Positions 46,643 to 51,749 are shown, counted from the first letter of the stretch. The stretch is DNA of 64,000 nt from a virus (IMGVR_UViG_3300018412_000010); one strand, 5' to 3'. A program made the numbers and translations. The notes: generated by a model not told the origin, from the sequence alone.

Positions 46643-46654
46643 AAGGAGATTTAT

Positions 46655-47530
46655 ATGAAATGTTTTTACCATAACGACCTTGATGGTAGATGTGCTGGTT
46701 CAATTGTGGCACAGTATGAAAATGACTATAATGTAAATAATTACCATGAAGTAGACTATATGATGGATTTATCACCAATGTTAAATGATATTGTAGAAAA
46801 TGAAAAGGTTTACTTTGTTGACTATTCTTTTACAGAAAAAACATTATGGGTTTTGGACAGTTTAATTAATAAGAATTGTAACATTGTATGGATTGACCAT
46901 CATAATTCAAGCTTAGAATTAATTAAAGCACACAAAGAATTGGTCTTGATTAATGGGATTAGATTAGATGGAATTAGTGGGGCGGGTCTTACGTATATGT
47001 ATTTATATAATTGTGGATTTGATGACATCCCATATCATGTTCAATTGGTTAGCGATTATGATTGTTGGAAGTTTAAGTTTGAACCACATACTACATATTT
47101 TAAACTTGGAATAGAATCCGAAGATTATGACGCATTAGATTTAGTTTGGAAAGAATTGAATACTAAAAGCAGTTTGAAGAAGCAAGTTAATAGTATGCTT
47201 GAAAAGATTATTTCTAATGGAACCGCTATTAAAAGATATGTCGACAAAGACAATGAACAATATCGAAAACAGTTTGCATATGAATCTGAAATCTGTGGGT
47301 ATAAGGCTTTGGTGGTTAACAGAAAAACAAACAGTTGGATATTTGGCGAAGAAATAAACAACTACCCATTAGTATGTGTATGGGTGTTTAATGGTAGTAG
47401 ATATTCCTATTCAATATTTTCTAAGTACAATGATGTTGATTGTTCTAAGATTGCTGAAAGTTTTGGTGGTGGTGGACATAAAGGTGCGGCTGGGTTTGGA
47501 TTTGGTGAATTATTATTTAAGTGGTGCTAA
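46655..47530 (+). CDS. DHH/DHHA1 family phosphoesterase
   Basis: YHNDLDG, VDYS, WIDHH, DYD.W, GGGGHKGAAGF. Confidence 0.9.
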   Translation: MKCFYHNDLDGRCAGSIVAQYENDYNVNNYHEVDYMMDLSPMLNDIVENEKVYFVDYSFTEKTLWVLDSLINKNCNIVWIDHHNSSLELIKAHKELVLINGIRLDGISGAGLTYMYLYNCGFDDIPYHVQLVSDYDCWKFKFEPHTTYFKLGIESEDYDALDLVWKELNTKSSLKKQVNSMLEKIISNGTAIKRYVDKDNEQYRKQFAYESEICGYKALVVNRKTNSWIFGEEINNYPLVCVWVFNGSRYSYSIFSKYNDVDCSKIAESFGGGGHKGAAGFGFGELLFKWC

Positions 47531-47532
47531 GT

Positions 47533-47724
47533 ATGAATAAAATTTGCGTAGAATTTACCGGTATAATAAAAAATCAAGATGAACATGAAAGATATATGTA
47601 TGAATTTACAGAACAGGAATTAATTGATTTAGTAAGAAGATTAATTTGTGAAAAGACTTCTGAAAATATAGTTGGGTGTTATTGTACACAGATTTATGTT
47701 AAGACCAATGTAGAATGTTATTAG
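47533..47724 (+). CDS. Hypothetical protein
   Basis: Short ORF after DHH gene. Confidence 0.45.
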   Translation: MNKICVEFTGIIKNQDEHERYMYEFTEQELIDLVRRLICEKTSENIVGCYCTQIYVKTNVECY

Positions 47725-47747
47725 TAATTATGTCTATATAAATTAAA

Positions 47748-47975
47748 TTGTGTGAAATGCTGGTAATTAGGATGTTATTAAAGATAGAAATGAAAGATTG
47801 GAAAGAATTGGGATTAAAAGAAAGTAATATGTTTCATATTATGTCTTACCTTTTATATAAAAAAGGAATTCTAAGTGAAGATGAAGTTGTTATTATAGCT
47901 AATGAAATGTCGGGATATAACACATTCGAACATGCAATGAATGTTATTGAAAATGACTTTGATGTAAGTAAGTAA
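47748..47975 (+). CDS. Hypothetical protein
   Basis: Short ORF before convergent terminator; start uncertain. Confidence 0.45.
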   Translation: MCEMLVIRMLLKIEMKDWKELGLKESNMFHIMSYLLYKKGILSEDEVVIIANEMSGYNTFEHAMNVIENDFDVSK

Positions 47976-47992
47976 AAGATTGATGATTGTAT

Positions 47993-48018
47993 GGGTTACT
48001 TTTTAGTAGCCCTATTTT
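47993..48018 (+). terminator. Terminator ending rightward operon
   Basis: GGGTTACT-TTTT-AGTAGCCC then T-tract. Confidence 0.65.
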
Positions 48019-48178
48019 TATGTCAATTTCGTGATGTTTGATTTTGCATAAAAAACAATTTAATGGTTTTCAAATTTTAAAAAGTGATGTCGTTTACAAT
48101 GGATAGGCCCTTCCAACAAAACCCAACCTTTCCAAAAAATGTAAACCCACCCCCACCCTACCGGCTGTGGTGTGTCAA

Positions 48179-48194
48179 TGTTTCACGTGAAACG
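48179..48194. promoter_or_regulatory. parS: parS site (15/16 match)
   Basis: TGTTTCACGTGAAACG vs consensus TGTTTCACGTGAAACA. Confidence 0.75.
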
Positions 48195-48207
48195 TGTTAG
48201 GGCAAAA

Positions 48208-49836: not shown

Positions 49837-49901
49837 AATAATACCTTCACTTTCTGCCCATGTTGGGCTATAAAATATAATTTTGTTTACCTTACTTCTT
49901 A

Positions 49902-49930
49902 AGTATAAACTAATTTAAACTAATTGTCAA
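49902..49930 (-). promoter_or_regulatory. SigmaA promoter
   Basis: TTGACA-17-TATACT. Confidence 0.7.
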
Positions 49931-50071
49931 TGTTTTTATTTCAAAACATTATTTGGAAATCTTTTCCAATTTATTGTATACAATCACGCTGCCAAAACAT
50001 AAAGCTGAAAAGCAACCCAACAAATATAATGTCACTTTCACGCAGACTTCAAAATTTTCCATGACTTCCCC

Positions 50072-50386
50072 CTACTTTTCTACAATATCAATAATCAAGT
50101 CGTCATAAATATCTGCCGTTCCTAGCGTGTCAAATTTGACAACATATTCAGTGCCAACTTTTAAGTCGGGTCTATTTTCACAATACCAACCATTTCCATC
50201 AAAAGTCGATAACTGCACCTTGCCATTTTCGTTAGAAACTACTGTAGCAAGTTCTGACTTTTGTTGTGTCATTTTCATAAAGTTAACATTCTGCTGAATT
50301 TTCTTTGAATGTTCAGCGTTATTCTGTGCGTTAAATCCGCAAACTAAAGTCGCCATTAAGCAGACAGCTAAAACTTTTCTTTTCAT
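50072..50386 (-). CDS. Exported/membrane-anchored small protein
   Basis: Signal-peptide-like MKRKVLAVCLMATLVCG; C-terminal FDT.GT.DIYDD.I. Confidence 0.6.
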   Translation of the reverse strand: MKRKVLAVCLMATLVCGFNAQNNAEHSKKIQQNVNFMKMTQQKSELATVVSNENGKVQLSTFDGNGWYCENRPDLKVGTEYVVKFDTLGTADIYDDLIIDIVEK

Positions 50387-50438
50387 AATTTTTTACCCCC
50401 AAATTTTACCAATTCAAACTATACCGTTCTATAAATTT

Positions 50439-50654
50439 TTAATTGCCTTGATAGAAAAGTTCCAACGGCAATTCTATTTTCAATTCAATAGCCAAACTTC
50501 TTAAGCAAGAAAAATCATCTTCCAGTATTTGGCTTGTGTATTCTTGTATCAGTTCGGACTTTGTAAAGTCATATATAGAAAACATATCAATTGCAATTTC
50601 TGCAACTTCATTCACAAAGTCTTTAAGTTCTTGACTTAATTGTAATCGTTTCAT
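50439..50654 (-). CDS. Small acidic hypothetical protein
   Basis: 71 aa, AAGGA RBS, downstream of promoter cluster. Confidence 0.55.
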   Translation of the reverse strand: MKRLQLSQELKDFVNEVAEIAIDMFSIYDFTKSELIQEYTSQILEDDFSCLRSLAIELKIELPLELFYQGN

Positions 50655-50844
50655 TTATGTAAATTCCTTACTTCTAATACCACAGTCTATTAGCTGACTT
50701 ACTGCTTTGATATTCCTTGCCACACTTCCAAAATACTTTTAATGTATTTCTACTTGTGTAATGGGGGTGTATATCCTAACCAGATTTTTACAACCGTATT
50801 TGCTTTGTTGTTCGTACACTGTAGTAATCGCTTACTACTTCTTA

Positions 50845-51512
50845 AGTATATCACAGGTTCAAACCCTGTGTCAACTACTTTTTTAAAAAGTTTTTTAAGT
50901 TCTGTCCTGTAGTAATTGCTTACCACATTTACTATTATAAACGTGTGACTTGCTAATGTCAACAACTTTTTTCAAGAAATTTTCAACTTATTTATTATAC
51001 CAGTGACGCGCTAACGTGTGTGTATATATAATGAAGTTTTGATGAAGTATGCTGTTGTGTAATGCCTTATCACATTTTCTATATTAAACCTATTCAAGAC
51101 TAATGTCAAATACTTTTTTCATATTTTTTTAAAAAACTTTATCTAAAAAAATCGCTTCTATTATATAGGAAAAATAAATCATCATTTATATGCGATACAA
51201 TCCCACAAATTAAGCGTATCATGGTTTTTTACTGGTGAATAATAAGAACATACCAATCCACCTATATAATGTCTAAAATCTGCTTTTATATGTACATAAA
51301 TATATTAAAATTCTATGTATATGTATCGCAGCGATAATGGTATATAATTTTTTAATCATTCCCATAGGGAAAGATGATAATAGCGTTAGCTATTATCTAT
51401 AGTATCAATAGGAAATAACTATAGTAATGTAGTTTTCAAAATTACATCATATAATATCAATATCTATCTTTATCTATACCTATATTATATCAAAATTTAG
51501 CTACTTTGTCAA
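50845..51512 (-). promoter_or_regulatory. Cluster of four leftward sigmaA-type promoters
   Basis: TTGACA with -10 boxes at 50845-50874 (18-bp spacer), 50934-50962, 51081-51109, 51484-51512. Confidence 0.7.
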
Positions 51513-51599
51513 GTTGATAGACTTTACATCAAAATGGCTATCGTGACCATAGGAAAAGATAATAATAACGAATAGTTATTATTTATAGTATCAATAGGA
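51362..51599. repeat. Two ~52-bp direct repeats each with a 9-bp hairpin
   Basis: 51362-51413 and 51547-51599; stems GATAATAGC/GCTATTATC and AATAATAAC/GTTATTATT. Confidence 0.85.
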
Positions 51600-51749
51600 T
51601 TTATCTATACTATAGCGTAACCATAGTATTTATTTATGGAAGGCATAGGATCTACCTATTTCCAAAATCTACCAGATCCGGTCTACTAAAAAATTTAAGG
51701 TCTACAAAATTTCTTCCTATTGGAGAAAAACCAGAAGTCCACGAACCCA

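What the first reader, a model, noticed from the sequence alone, without database searches (positions are those of the whole stretch)
46649..51722. About 5 kb almost completely purged of the trinucleotide GAG/CTC on both strands
Seen by manual scan: between the RBS GAG at 46646 and the GAG at 51723 I find a single CTC (49722-49724). A rough composition estimate at 30-35% GC predicts about 80-100. Genes here use GAA for Glu and non-GGAG ribosome-binding sites (GAAGGT, GGGGG, AAGGA). The 52-64 kb early array also looks depleted outside RBSs, whereas the structural region has GAG/CTC routinely. Loss on both strands points to a DNA-level target. Inference: first-entering DNA has been cleaned of a core shared by many host defence motifs (e.g. 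BREX TAGGAG, many Type IIG/IIS/III sites, or DarT-type TCTC) until counter-defence genes are expressed.
Basis: partly seen in the sequence, partly recalled or inferred. Interest (0 to 1): 0.78.

Follow-up and report, generated by a model that had tools for sequence, protein, structure and literature searches.

The report
GAG/CTC-free early island in phage
A 5-kb block of immediate-early genes in an uncultured 169-kb SPbeta-like phage has been scrubbed by ongoing selection of the three-letter DNA word GAG/CTC on both strands, which implies that something reading only three base pairs acts on this DNA at the start of infection.

Summary
Window 46649-51722 holds one GAG/CTC (CTC at 49722), against 46-94 expected, and every other trinucleotide is normal. 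In-frame codons, out-of-frame triplets, ribosome-binding sites and non-coding DNA are all purged, on both strands, so the target is DNA and not codons.

The purge is wider than reported. Coding DNA from 46655 to 54396 holds 2 sites against about 61 expected. The early array (52 to at least 74 kb) has an observed/expected ratio (o/e) of about 0.35, and late genes about 0.6. The left border is sharp.

Four related metagenomic lineages share the purge, and all four carry a host-type parS site. They form one clade. Two sister lineages have neither feature. Substitutions between two purged lineages avoided creating the word (6 seen, about 22 expected, P=0.0005), so selection is ongoing.

The island carries a stack of consensus sigma-A promoters, a nuclease-less GmrSD/BrxU-like gene and a DHH phosphoesterase.

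Best reading (about 0.45): a motif-free "stealth" immediate-early module, analogous to T5 first-step-transfer DNA, that evades a GAG/CTC-reading activity. The agent is unknown, and the genome ends could not be mapped. This scan found similar word-purged early islands, with other words, in other phages.

The parts
46649..51722 (.). Core GAG/CTC-free island: one site in 5074 bp
49722..49724 (+). The only site in the island. It reads GGAGA on the - strand, out of frame in the disordered N-terminus of the 401-aa gene. HGAG and GAGB are absent over about 5.2 kb.
46655..47530 (+). DHH/DHHA1 phosphoesterase, 291 aa, the first purged gene (0 sites, 9.8 expected). Its GGAG ribosome-binding site at 46645-46648 marks the sharp left border. 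The genes to its left have normal counts.
   Evidence: (phrog_4771, 3.5e-44); homologues in other phages carry 5-14 sites
47533..47975 (+). Two small ORFs (63 aa at 47533-47724, 72 aa at 47757-47975) with no family match and 0 sites
48208..48239 (.). Perfect 32-nt hairpin flanked by A and T runs: a bidirectional terminator between the convergent operons
48179..48194 (.). parS-like site, 15 of 16 matches to TGTTTCACGTGAAACA
48609..48624 (.). Perfect Bacillota-type parS, TGTTTCACGTGAAACA. A perfect parS is present in all four purged lineages and absent from the two non-purged ones.
48252..48533 (-). 93-aa gene between the two parS sites, no family match (0 sites, 5.5 expected)
48631..49836 (-). 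401-aa protein. It has a disordered acidic N-terminus, a divergent GmrSD_N (DUF262, ParB/Srx fold) domain and a helical domain like BrxU, SspE and DndI. It has no DUF1524 nuclease domain. 1 site, 17.4 expected.
50072..50386 (-). 104-aa protein with an N-terminal signal-peptide-like segment. This gene is absent from the close relative L053.
50439..50654 (-). 71-aa acidic protein, the first gene after the promoter stack. This gene is absent from L053.
49902..51512 (-). Stack of five co-oriented consensus sigma-A promoter-like sites: 51512-51484 (12/12 plus TG), 50962-50934 (12/12), 50874-50845 (11/12 plus TG), 49930-49902 (11/12) and 51109-51081 (10/12)
   Evidence: pattern scan only
51387..51612 (.). 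Duplicated 40-nt element (51387-51426 and 51573-51612, 85% identical) flanking the outermost promoter
51723..51954 (.). Short non-coding element just outside the right border. It holds 7 GAG/CTC in 217 bp and three copies of CGCAGGGTAACAGC plus a GGTTAACAGC variant. The relative L053 stops being homologous at 51782, inside this element.
51993..54396 (-). Second tier of the purge. The 107-aa gene has 0 sites (2.6 expected) and the YonV_C-family gene at 53164-54396 has 1 (15.6 expected). The only other sites are 4 inside an operator-like repeat at 53043-53083.
54397..64000 (-). Array of small early genes with graded depletion. Markov o/e is about 0.34 and out-of-frame o/e 0.25. About half of the remaining sites are GGAG ribosome-binding sites. 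The array continues to at least 74 kb at o/e 0.2-0.55.
45571..46026 (+). Dam-family (PF05869) N6-adenine methyltransferase just left of the border, not purged (3 sites, 6.4 expected)

Best explanation
GAG/CTC is a liability at the level of double-stranded DNA. Some enzyme that reads this three-base core in either orientation cuts, nicks or marks the phage DNA. Every site carries a cost, so the word is the most depleted trinucleotide across the whole genome.

The cost is highest for the DNA that must work first, from the single incoming genome copy and before any counter-measure exists. That DNA is the immediate-early module driven by the strongest host-type promoters. It has therefore been rewritten, by synonymous codons, altered ribosome-binding sites and altered non-coding DNA, until it holds no target. 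Its products, a nuclease-less GmrSD/BrxU-like protein and a DHH phosphoesterase among them, are candidates for the functions that then protect the rest of the genome. The logic is that of T5/BF23 first-step-transfer DNA and of the leading region of T7-like phages.

Shown: the purge, that it acts at DNA level, ongoing selection, restriction to one clade, and the gradient.

Inferred: that the agent is a host defence, for example a Type I half-site, a Type III/IIS/BREX-type reader or a trinucleotide CRISPR PAM. Also inferred: that the island is physically or temporally first, and that its genes are counter-defence genes.
For: 1. The purge affects all codon frames, both strands, ribosome-binding sites and non-coding DNA. 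Only this trinucleotide is affected.
2. Selection is ongoing. The window and L053 differ by 287 substitutions in the island. The same substitution types placed at random would leave about 22 sites, but 6 and 1 are seen (P = 0.0005).
3. The orthologous gene is purged in four lineages that are 63-88% identical in protein: 1/26.8, 0/22.4 and 4/22.8 in L053, L070 and L071. It is not purged in the sister lineages, at 10/22.0 and 28/34.9. Blocks with different composition (GC 0.29 to 0.40) and different histories (86-99.8% identity to L053) are all purged, so the purge was imposed in place.
4. There is a gradient with a sharp left border. The genes just left of 46649 are normal. The island is at o/e 0.01, the next 2.4 kb of genes hold 1 site against 18, the early array is at about 0.35 and the late genes at about 0.6.
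5. Five consensus sigma-A promoters drive the island genes.
6. The phage is visibly shaped by nucleases elsewhere: GATC o/e 0.14, GGCC 0.15, GTAC 0.21, and GGWCC, ATCGAT, CCATGG and GCATGC are all absent.
7. Precedent. In T5/BF23 only sites in the first-step-transfer DNA confer sensitivity to R-M, CRISPR and Ssp systems (PMC10644984). In Murciavirus only Type I sites in the first-injected region matter (PMC12455610).
8. In SPbeta relatives the virion DNA opens between yonP/yonO and yonR..yonV. The homologues of YonO and YonV here bracket the island.
Against: - No known defence reads only three base pairs. No second half-site was found next to the residual GAGs.
- Partial genome-wide depletion of a 3-mer still leaves hundreds of sites. 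It therefore helps only if each site carries a small independent risk.
- The island is not cleaner for the other avoided sites (GATC, GTAC, CTAG, GGCC). A uniquely exposed stretch would be expected to be.
- Termini and order of entry are unknown. The terminase is SPbeta-like (32% identity), and SPbeta packs by headful, which gives one imprecise end.
- The left border lies inside a co-oriented gene string, not at a transcription-unit boundary.
- In L053 the gene to the right of the border is not depleted.
- The host is unknown. The only lead is that relatives lie in MAGs of Eubacteriales, Christensenella and Sedimentibacter.
- No island gene matches a known anti-defence family.
Confidence: 0.45

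Rival explanations
1. Self-immunity or self-marking. The word is the target of an enzyme of the phage itself. One version is an early nuclease that degrades host DNA, following the logic of T4 Endo IV, which has trinucleotide specificity, and of T5 host-DNA degradation. The other version is a DNA modification written at GAG/CTC. The island must then stay uncut or unmarked. For example, host Type IV (GmrSD/BrxU-type) enzymes could not attack it before the island's nuclease-less GmrSD-like protein is made.
For: - Two phage methyltransferases lie just left of the border: Dam-family PF05869 at 45571-46026 and a C5 enzyme at 42491-43384.
- The island's largest gene is a GmrSD_N/BrxU-like protein without a nuclease domain, which fits a decoy of Type IV enzymes.
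- How T5 spares its own first-step-transfer DNA while degrading host DNA is unknown (PMC10644984).
- Follow-ups of similar islands in other phages in this scan favoured modification escape. These are unchecked notes.
Against: - A protective mark would not be selected against genome-wide, yet GAG/CTC is the most depleted word everywhere.
- No hypermodification genes were seen in the window or in the notes on this genome.
- No nuclease with the right timing was identified. YonV_C has only a weak Cas3-HD-like hit, E = 0.001.
- The specificities of the methyltransferases are unknown.
- The later check of the analogous claim elsewhere gave it about 26/100.
Confidence: 0.2
2. A ParB/parS-linked platform. 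The island is the zone around host-type parS sites on which host ParB (Spo0J)-CTP clamps, and perhaps SMC, load and slide. This could serve anchoring, segregation or spore entrapment as in phi29, or silencing of the early promoters. GAG/CTC would be excluded because something bound or acting at that word would block or damage this nucleoprotein complex.
For: - A perfect parS is present in all four purged lineages and absent from both non-purged orthologous loci.
- The purged lineages form one clade.
- parS lies at the convergence point inside the island.
- The neighbouring gene has a ParB/Srx-fold domain.
Against: - The co-occurrence amounts to a single evolutionary event.
- No known link exists between ParB spreading and any trinucleotide.
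- The purge is asymmetric around parS: 1.5 kb to the left and 3.1-5.8 kb to the right.
- The word is also depleted genome-wide, far from parS.
- The orthologue of the ParB-fold gene exists without parS or a purge in L052 and L055.
Confidence: 0.1
3. A translation- or RNA-level cause. Early genes avoid the GAG codon because the host reads it poorly until the phage's own tRNA-Glu(CUC) and GluRS are made. GAG and CUC are also avoided inside mRNAs as Shine-Dalgarno-like and anti-Shine-Dalgarno-like words, or as the site of an mRNA endonuclease.
For: - In-frame GAG makes up 15% of Glu codons in late genes, 4.6% in the early array and 0% in the island.
- An unchecked note reports a phage GluRS and two tRNA-Glu(CUC) genes elsewhere in this genome.
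- AGG/CCT is also somewhat depleted in late genes, at 0.75.
Against: - Out-of-frame triplets, antisense CTC and non-coding DNA are purged just as strongly.
- The island's own ribosome-binding sites avoid GAG, the opposite of what Shine-Dalgarno logic predicts.
- AGG is hardly depleted in the early genes (0.83-0.87) while GAG is at 0.04-0.28.
- This cause may add to the in-frame signal, but it cannot be the main one.
Confidence: 0.05
4. No selection in this phage. The island is a recent horizontal import that brought a foreign word usage, or the pattern is a local mutational bias or an assembly artefact.
For: - The 48-50 kb part has higher GC (0.38-0.40) and does not share the genome's CTAG and GTAC avoidance.
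- The locus is mosaic between relatives.
Against: - The same sequence is assembled in several metagenomes at 99.95-99.995% identity.
- The genes are syntenic orthologues across the clade.
- Blocks with different composition and history are all purged.
- The substitution test shows avoidance since the lineages split.
- Replacements are of all kinds (GAA, GAC, TTA, CTA, TTG, CTT and others), not one mutation type.
- No mutational product word is in excess.
Confidence: 0.03

Closest known systems
First-step-transfer (pre-early, terminal-repeat) DNA of T5/BF23 (Tequintavirus)
   Same: A block of a few kb carries strong host-polymerase promoters and genes of unknown or host-takeover function. Its content of nuclease target sites decides sensitivity, while sites elsewhere in the genome are tolerated (PMC10644984). 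As I recall from the T5 literature, and did not check here, the T5 stop region also carries repeats and palindromes at its inner edge, as this island does.
   Different: - In T5 whole 4- to 13-bp recognition sites happen to be absent. Here a 3-bp word is purged completely, ribosome-binding sites included, and depleted genome-wide.
- No homologue of dmp, A1 or A2 is present.
- The terminase is SPbeta-like, not T5-like.
- A terminal repeat and two-step entry were not tested.
- The island is not cleaner for other avoided sites.
Leading (first-injected) region of T7-like phages; Murciavirus and the Type I system Mme2I
   Same: Only motifs in the first-injected region determine restriction, and that region is variable and encodes anti-defence genes (PMC12455610). 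A stack of strong host promoters lies near one edge.
   Different: That case concerns one bipartite Type I motif and a few sites. Here the word is a trinucleotide with no detectable partner. The phage family and size also differ.
Genome-wide restriction-site avoidance in phages
   Same: The same genome shows the classical signature: GATC, GGCC, GTAC, CTAG, GGWCC and several 6-mers.
   Different: Classical avoidance concerns palindromic 4- to 6-mers and is spread evenly. The GAG/CTC effect is asymmetric, 3 bp long and strongly regional.
parS sites of virulent Bacillus phage phi29 (spore entrapment through Spo0J).
   Same: A phage carries the host chromosomal parS consensus in non-coding DNA near its early genes.
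   Different: No word purge is described around the phi29 parS sites. The function of parS here is untested.
Other short-word-purged early islands noted by this scan (WGA/TCW, SRAG/CTYS, VGA/TCB, GT/AC)
   Same: Sharply bounded early cassettes of uncultured phages have lost a 2- to 4-base word on both strands. One of them shows nested tiers starting from one sharp border, as here.
   Different: The words and the phages differ. Those notes are AI readings, mostly unchecked. Several of them favour modification escape, which fits this case poorly because GAG/CTC is selected against genome-wide.

Membership tests
T5-type first-step-transfer region | Lies in a long direct terminal repeat at the leading genome end | not testable with these tools
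Short 6-kb contigs that cover the island are explained by AT-rich coverage gaps in a fragmented assembly.
T5-type first-step-transfer region | Strong host-RNA-polymerase promoters drive pre-early genes | tested here: met
   Five sigma-A consensus matches, two of them 12/12, all on the - strand upstream of the island genes. This is a pattern match only.
T5-type first-step-transfer region | Free of sites for the nucleases the phage meets, while the rest of the genome keeps them | tested here: inconclusive
   Met for GAG/CTC. Not met for GATC, GTAC, CTAG and GGCC, which occur in the island at or above the genome's rate.
T5-type first-step-transfer region | Pre-early genes dmp, A1 and A2 | tested here: not met
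   Pfam, PHROGs and PADLOC scans of all island genes found only a DHH phosphoesterase and a GmrSD_N-like protein.
SPbeta-like phages (Spbetavirus relatives) | YonF-type terminase and a YonV homologue; the YonO-type RNA polymerase call rests on an unchecked note | tested here: met
The large terminase is 32% identical to SPbeta YonF over 88% of its length. PF27199 YonV_C is recorded on the 410-aa protein.
GmrSD / BrxU Type IV restriction enzymes | N-terminal DUF262 (GmrSD_N, ParB/Srx fold) NTPase domain | tested here: met
   VIA-align gives BrxU 7p9k Z 7.6 (259 aligned, rmsd 13.8) and SspE Z 6.1 (124 aligned, rmsd 4.0). Profile relatives reach PF03235 at up to 4e-26. The motif DGQQR is changed to NGSSR.
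GmrSD / BrxU Type IV restriction enzymes | C-terminal DUF1524 His-Me finger nuclease domain | tested here: not met
   The 401-aa model aligns only to BrxU residues 1-422 of 580. There is no Pfam hit. Most family members are 300-420 aa long.
DarT-type ssDNA ADP-ribosylation target | Four-base motif with T at positions 1 and 3 (TNTC) | tested here: not met
   CTC is lost in every 5' context and GAG is lost as well. The motif requirement is from PMC11543638.
Type I R-M bipartite target with a GAG half-site | A second specific half-site at a fixed spacing | tested here: inconclusive
   No 3-mer at any spacing of 0-11 is significantly missing next to the 538 residual GAGs (best P 5e-4 among 1536 tests). 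The power of this test is low.
Chromosomal parS (ParB/Spo0J site of Bacillota) | 16-bp palindrome TGTTNCACGTGAAACA | tested here: met
   A perfect copy lies at 48609 and a 15/16 copy at 48179. Perfect copies are present in L053, L070 and L071. Binding was not tested.

The most novel reading that the evidence does not exclude
An as yet undescribed DNA-acting system with only trinucleotide (GAG/CTC) specificity operates in the Clostridia-type hosts of this phage clade. It could belong to the host or to the phage. The phages answer it with a word-free 'landing pad' that also recruits host ParB through parS. Together with the other word-purged early islands seen in this scan, this would define a general class of short-word readers that act on incoming phage DNA, and a general stealth strategy against them.
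Probability: 0.25. Interest if true: 0.85.

Novelty: new variant of a known kind. Interest (0 to 1): 0.72.

Why it matters
Site-free leading DNA is known from T5 and T7-like phages, but only for ordinary 4- to 13-bp recognition sites. Here selection has removed a three-base word from 5-8 kb of genes, ribosome-binding sites and spacers. It keeps the word out in four lineages that have diverged to 63% protein identity.

No described restriction, BREX, phosphorothioate, DarT or CRISPR system accounts for such a target as it stands. A Type I half-site or a trinucleotide PAM comes closest. The island is therefore a footprint of an activity that has not been identified.

The island also marks exactly which phage genes must act first, which makes them good candidates for new counter-defence functions. 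The link with a host parS site is unexplained and can be tested.

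Tried and rejected
- Public phage relatives. Megablast of the island and of 25 kb of structural genes, and tblastn of the 401-aa protein, against public phages found nothing. IMG/VR has no relative of the 401-aa protein or the terminase.
- Access to the whole genome and to reads. No whole genome or record is held.
- The 6-kb contigs as evidence for a terminal repeat or a free element: rejected. 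Two short contigs cover window 46385-52497 and 46410-52448. The flanks in the same samples are also broken into 1.3-4.3-kb pieces at AT-rich spots. One contig end is a Nextera adapter. The two assemblies share a SNP and a fragmentation pattern, so they probably come from the same data.
- A second half-site near the residual GAGs: none found.
- A longer context: depletion is broad over NGAG and GAGN. In the island only GGAGA survives.
- A mutational cause (m5C decay or a deaminase): rejected. No product word is in excess, and the replacements are of all types.
- Conservation with the DHH gene: rejected. In 38 phage contigs with a DHH homologue, none has a purge.
- Islands for other IUPAC 3-mers in 19 related loci: none found.
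- Similarity between the SPbeta pac region and this window: none. SPbeta itself is not GAG-depleted.
- ESM Atlas look-up of the 93-aa protein: no lead.
- PADLOC and PHROGs scans of the small island proteins: nothing.
- Walking further right along the contig gave only short contigs.

Full report
OBSERVATION.
The count is exactly as reported. GAG at 46646 is followed by a single CTC at 49722, and the next GAG is at 51723. The 5074 bp in between should hold 94 sites by base composition, 70 by a first-order Markov model, or 46 at the density of the rest of the window. All 31 other trinucleotide pairs lie at o/e 0.85-1.52. Poisson P is 3.9e-19 against the most conservative expectation. No other 2- to 6-mer behaves this way, and the two longest GAG/CTC-free gaps of the window are the two halves of this stretch.

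THE TARGET IS DNA, NOT CODONS OR RNA.
I used ORF-based gene sets and compared each with synonymous reshuffling.
- The island genes use GAA for all 86 Glu codons and never use Leu CTC.
- Even with that codon usage kept, random synonymous order would give 25.7 out-of-frame sites. One is seen (z = -6.4).
- Sense GAG (1 against 14.0) and sense CTC (0 against 11.7) are both lost.
- The 1728 non-coding bases hold none, against 19.2 expected. None of the six internal ribosome-binding sites contains GAG, against 36 of 72 elsewhere in the window (P = 0.028).
- AGG/CCT, the other half of a Shine-Dalgarno word, is not depleted in the early genes.
Codon supply, Shine-Dalgarno avoidance or an mRNA nuclease therefore cannot be the main cause.

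EXTENT AND GRADIENT.
The purge is larger than the finding says. Gene by gene, against late-gene codon usage:
- Inside the island: DHH 0/9.8, 63-aa 0/2.1, 72-aa 0/2.2, 93-aa 0/5.5, 401-aa 1/17.4, 104-aa 0/2.3, 71-aa 0/3.3.
- Beyond the stated end: the 107-aa gene 0/2.6 and the YonV_C-family gene (53164-54396) 1/15.6.
- Just left of 46649 the genes are normal: the 85-aa gene 2/2.5 and Dam 3/6.4.

Between 46649 and 54403 the sites outside coding DNA sit in two short intergenic elements. One is a repeat element at 51723-51954 with 7 sites. The other is an operator-like repeat at 53043-53083 with 4 sites.

Further right, the array of small early genes is at Markov o/e about 0.34 (out-of-frame 0.25) and stays at 0.2-0.55 to at least 73.7 kb. 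The late genes (1-40 kb) are at about 0.6 and the + operon (40-46.6 kb) at about 0.7.

In every one of these sets GAG/CTC is the most depleted trinucleotide, on both strands. The picture is a genome-wide liability, a sharp left border and decay to the right.

WHAT THE GENOME IS.
The window belongs to a 169,327-bp metagenome contig, and the same sequence occurs in several other assemblies at 99.95-99.995% identity. The large terminase is 32% identical to SPbeta YonF. A YonV_C-domain protein is present. An unchecked note calls the 968-aa ORF a YonO-type polymerase. Distant homologues of the YonV-like protein lie in MAGs of Eubacteriales, Christensenella and Sedimentibacter, so the host is probably a member of the Clostridia, but it is not identified. 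The genome strongly avoids many restriction-type palindromes (GATC 0.14, GGCC 0.15, GTAC 0.21, CTAG 0.33; GGWCC, ATCGAT, CCATGG and GCATGC absent).

ANATOMY OF THE ISLAND.
From the left come the last three genes of a + strand operon: a DHH/DHHA1 phosphoesterase (phrog_4771) and two small ORFs. Next is a perfect bidirectional terminator hairpin.

From the right comes a convergent - strand operon. It starts from a stack of five consensus sigma-A promoter matches, two of them 12/12. It encodes a 71-aa protein, a 104-aa signal-peptide protein, a 401-aa protein and a 93-aa protein.

The 401-aa protein folds with confidence from residue 67 to 383 (pLDDT 76 overall). It has a ParB/Srx-fold domain plus a helical domain. 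The closest structures are the Type IV restriction enzyme BrxU (Z 7.6, 259 residues) and SspE (Z 6.1). Profile relatives reach Pfam GmrSD_N. It lacks the DUF1524 nuclease domain.

Two host-type parS sites (48179 at 15/16, 48609 perfect) flank the 93-aa gene.

COMPARATIVE EVIDENCE.
DHH homologues (28-61% identity) in 38 viral contigs sit in DNA with normal GAG/CTC content and carry 5-14 sites themselves.

The 401-aa gene has orthologues only in metagenome contigs.
- In L053/L054 (88% identity), L070 (69%) and L071 (63%) the gene holds 1, 0 and 4 sites against 22-27 expected, and the surrounding DNA is purged too.
- In L055 (57%) and L052 (59%) it holds 10 and 28 sites.
- The purged lineages form one clade (support 84/84), so the purge probably arose once and has been kept since.
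- L053 is a mosaic of 86-99.8% identity to the window and lacks two of the small genes. Its purge ends at the same base as in the window.

Across the 287 substitutions between the window and L053, random placement of the same substitution types would have left about 22 sites. Six and one are present (P = 0.0005). At sites where the non-purged orthologues have GAG/CTC, the window has GAA, GAC, TTA, CTA, TTG, CTT and others. This is selection, not a single mutational process.

Markov o/e is also lowest for GAG/CTC in L052 (0.48), L055 (0.53) and L062 (0.67). It is about 1 in more distant YonV-bearing contigs and 0.7-0.84 in the DHH-bearing phages. SPbeta is not depleted. No island for any other IUPAC 3-mer exists in 19 related loci.

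A perfect parS is present in all four purged lineages and in neither non-purged one. Given the tree, this is one event and not four.

MECHANISM.
The data require an activity that recognises GAG/CTC on duplex DNA in either orientation. Its cost per site must be small over most of the genome and prohibitive in the immediate-early module.

The best-supported reading follows the logic of T5 first-step-transfer DNA and of the leading region of T7-like phages. In those systems only target sites in the first-exposed DNA decide the outcome, because the rest is protected once early products act (PMC10644984; PMC12455610).

Three features of the island are in keeping with this: the promoter stack, the sharp border and the gradient. 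So is the fact that SPbeta-type virion DNA opens between yonP/yonO and yonR..yonV, an interval that holds the island here. A purely temporal version also fits: a single incoming copy must be transcribed intact.

What argues for caution:
- No known system reads three bases, and no partner half-site was found.
- The island is not cleaner for GATC, GTAC, CTAG or GGCC.
- The ends of the genome are unmapped, and SPbeta-type headful packaging would give only one precise end.

The main rival is an enzyme of the phage itself, either a nuclease or a modification written at this word. In that reading the nuclease-less GmrSD-like protein would be a decoy for host Type IV enzymes. Genome-wide selection against the word fits this reading poorly. 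A link to ParB spreading from parS is suggested by the co-occurrence but has no known mechanism.

RELATION TO EARLIER NOTES OF THIS SCAN.
Other follow-ups reported word-purged early islands with other words in other uncultured phages. These are unchecked leads, but they suggest the phenomenon is general. An unchecked note on a phage GluRS with two tRNA-Glu(CUC) genes in this genome may explain the in-frame part of the early/late difference, and nothing more.

VERDICT.
The finding is real, highly significant, conserved in a clade and under ongoing selection. It is a new, sharper variant of the known site-free leading DNA. The agent and the order of entry remain to be shown.

Noticed in passing
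window 48179-48194 and 48609-48624; L053 3053 and 3474; L070 2584; L071 2448: Host-type parS palindromes sit at the convergence point of the two operons. They are present only in the four lineages that have the GAG/CTC purge and are absent from the orthologous loci L052 and L055.
   Followed up: partly
window 48631-49836 (-): The 401-aa protein belongs to a small family, mostly 300-420 aa long, of GmrSD_N/BrxU-like proteins without the nuclease domain. There are 128 representatives at E <= 1e-3 among 1.84 billion proteins. It may be a decoy or inhibitor of Type IV or phosphorothioate-sensing defences.
   Followed up: partly
window 51723-51954: A non-coding element has three copies of CGCAGGGTAACAGC plus a GGTTAACAGC variant and 7 GAG/CTC in 217 bp, directly outside the purge. 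Homology with L053 breaks inside it, at 51782. It is a candidate pac site, iteron array or stop element.
   Followed up: partly
window 53043-53144: An operator-like pair of AAGTT(T)ATCACTTTTG repeats with inverted GGTGATAAA lies downstream of the YonV_C gene. It holds the only cluster of GAG/CTC in the second tier of the purge.
   Followed up: no
whole window: There is strong genome-wide avoidance of GATC (o/e 0.14), GGCC (0.15), GTAC (0.21), CTAG (0.33), GGWCC (0 sites), ATCGAT, CCATGG and GCATGC (0 each) and CTGAAG (0.22). This is a broad restriction-avoidance signature.
   Followed up: partly
window 48200-50130: Ten of the 39 CTAG sites of the 73.7-kb extended sequence lie in this 2 kb. This is partly a by-product of replacing Leu CTC by CTA, so the segment does not share the genome's CTAG avoidance.
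   Followed up: partly
L044 1-80 (ena:ERZ27247441:k141_209477): The public metagenome contig begins with 80 nt of Illumina Nextera P5/i5 adapter fused to window position 46385. This is adapter contamination in the deposited assembly.
   Followed up: yes
window 53164-54396 (-): The N-terminus (residues 8-68) of the YonV_C-family protein gives a weak hit to the Cas3 HD-nuclease region (PADLOC, E = 0.0012). The gene is almost free of GAG/CTC here but not in L052.
   Followed up: no
L052 10001-11161: In the non-purged relative, the orthologue of the 401-aa gene is unusually rich in GAG/CTC (28 sites, 11 of them in-frame Leu CTC codons), while the rest of that early region is depleted.
   Followed up: no
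window 42491-43384 (+): A 297-aa C5 cytosine methyltransferase (PF00145) shares words with a phage enzyme that another follow-up of this scan described as circularly permuted. Its specificity is unknown.
   Followed up: no
window 49858-50701 compared with L053: The 104-aa secreted protein and the 71-aa protein are missing from the close relative L053, where 246 bp stand in place of 843 bp. They are an accessory cassette inside the island, and they are purged all the same.
   Followed up: partly
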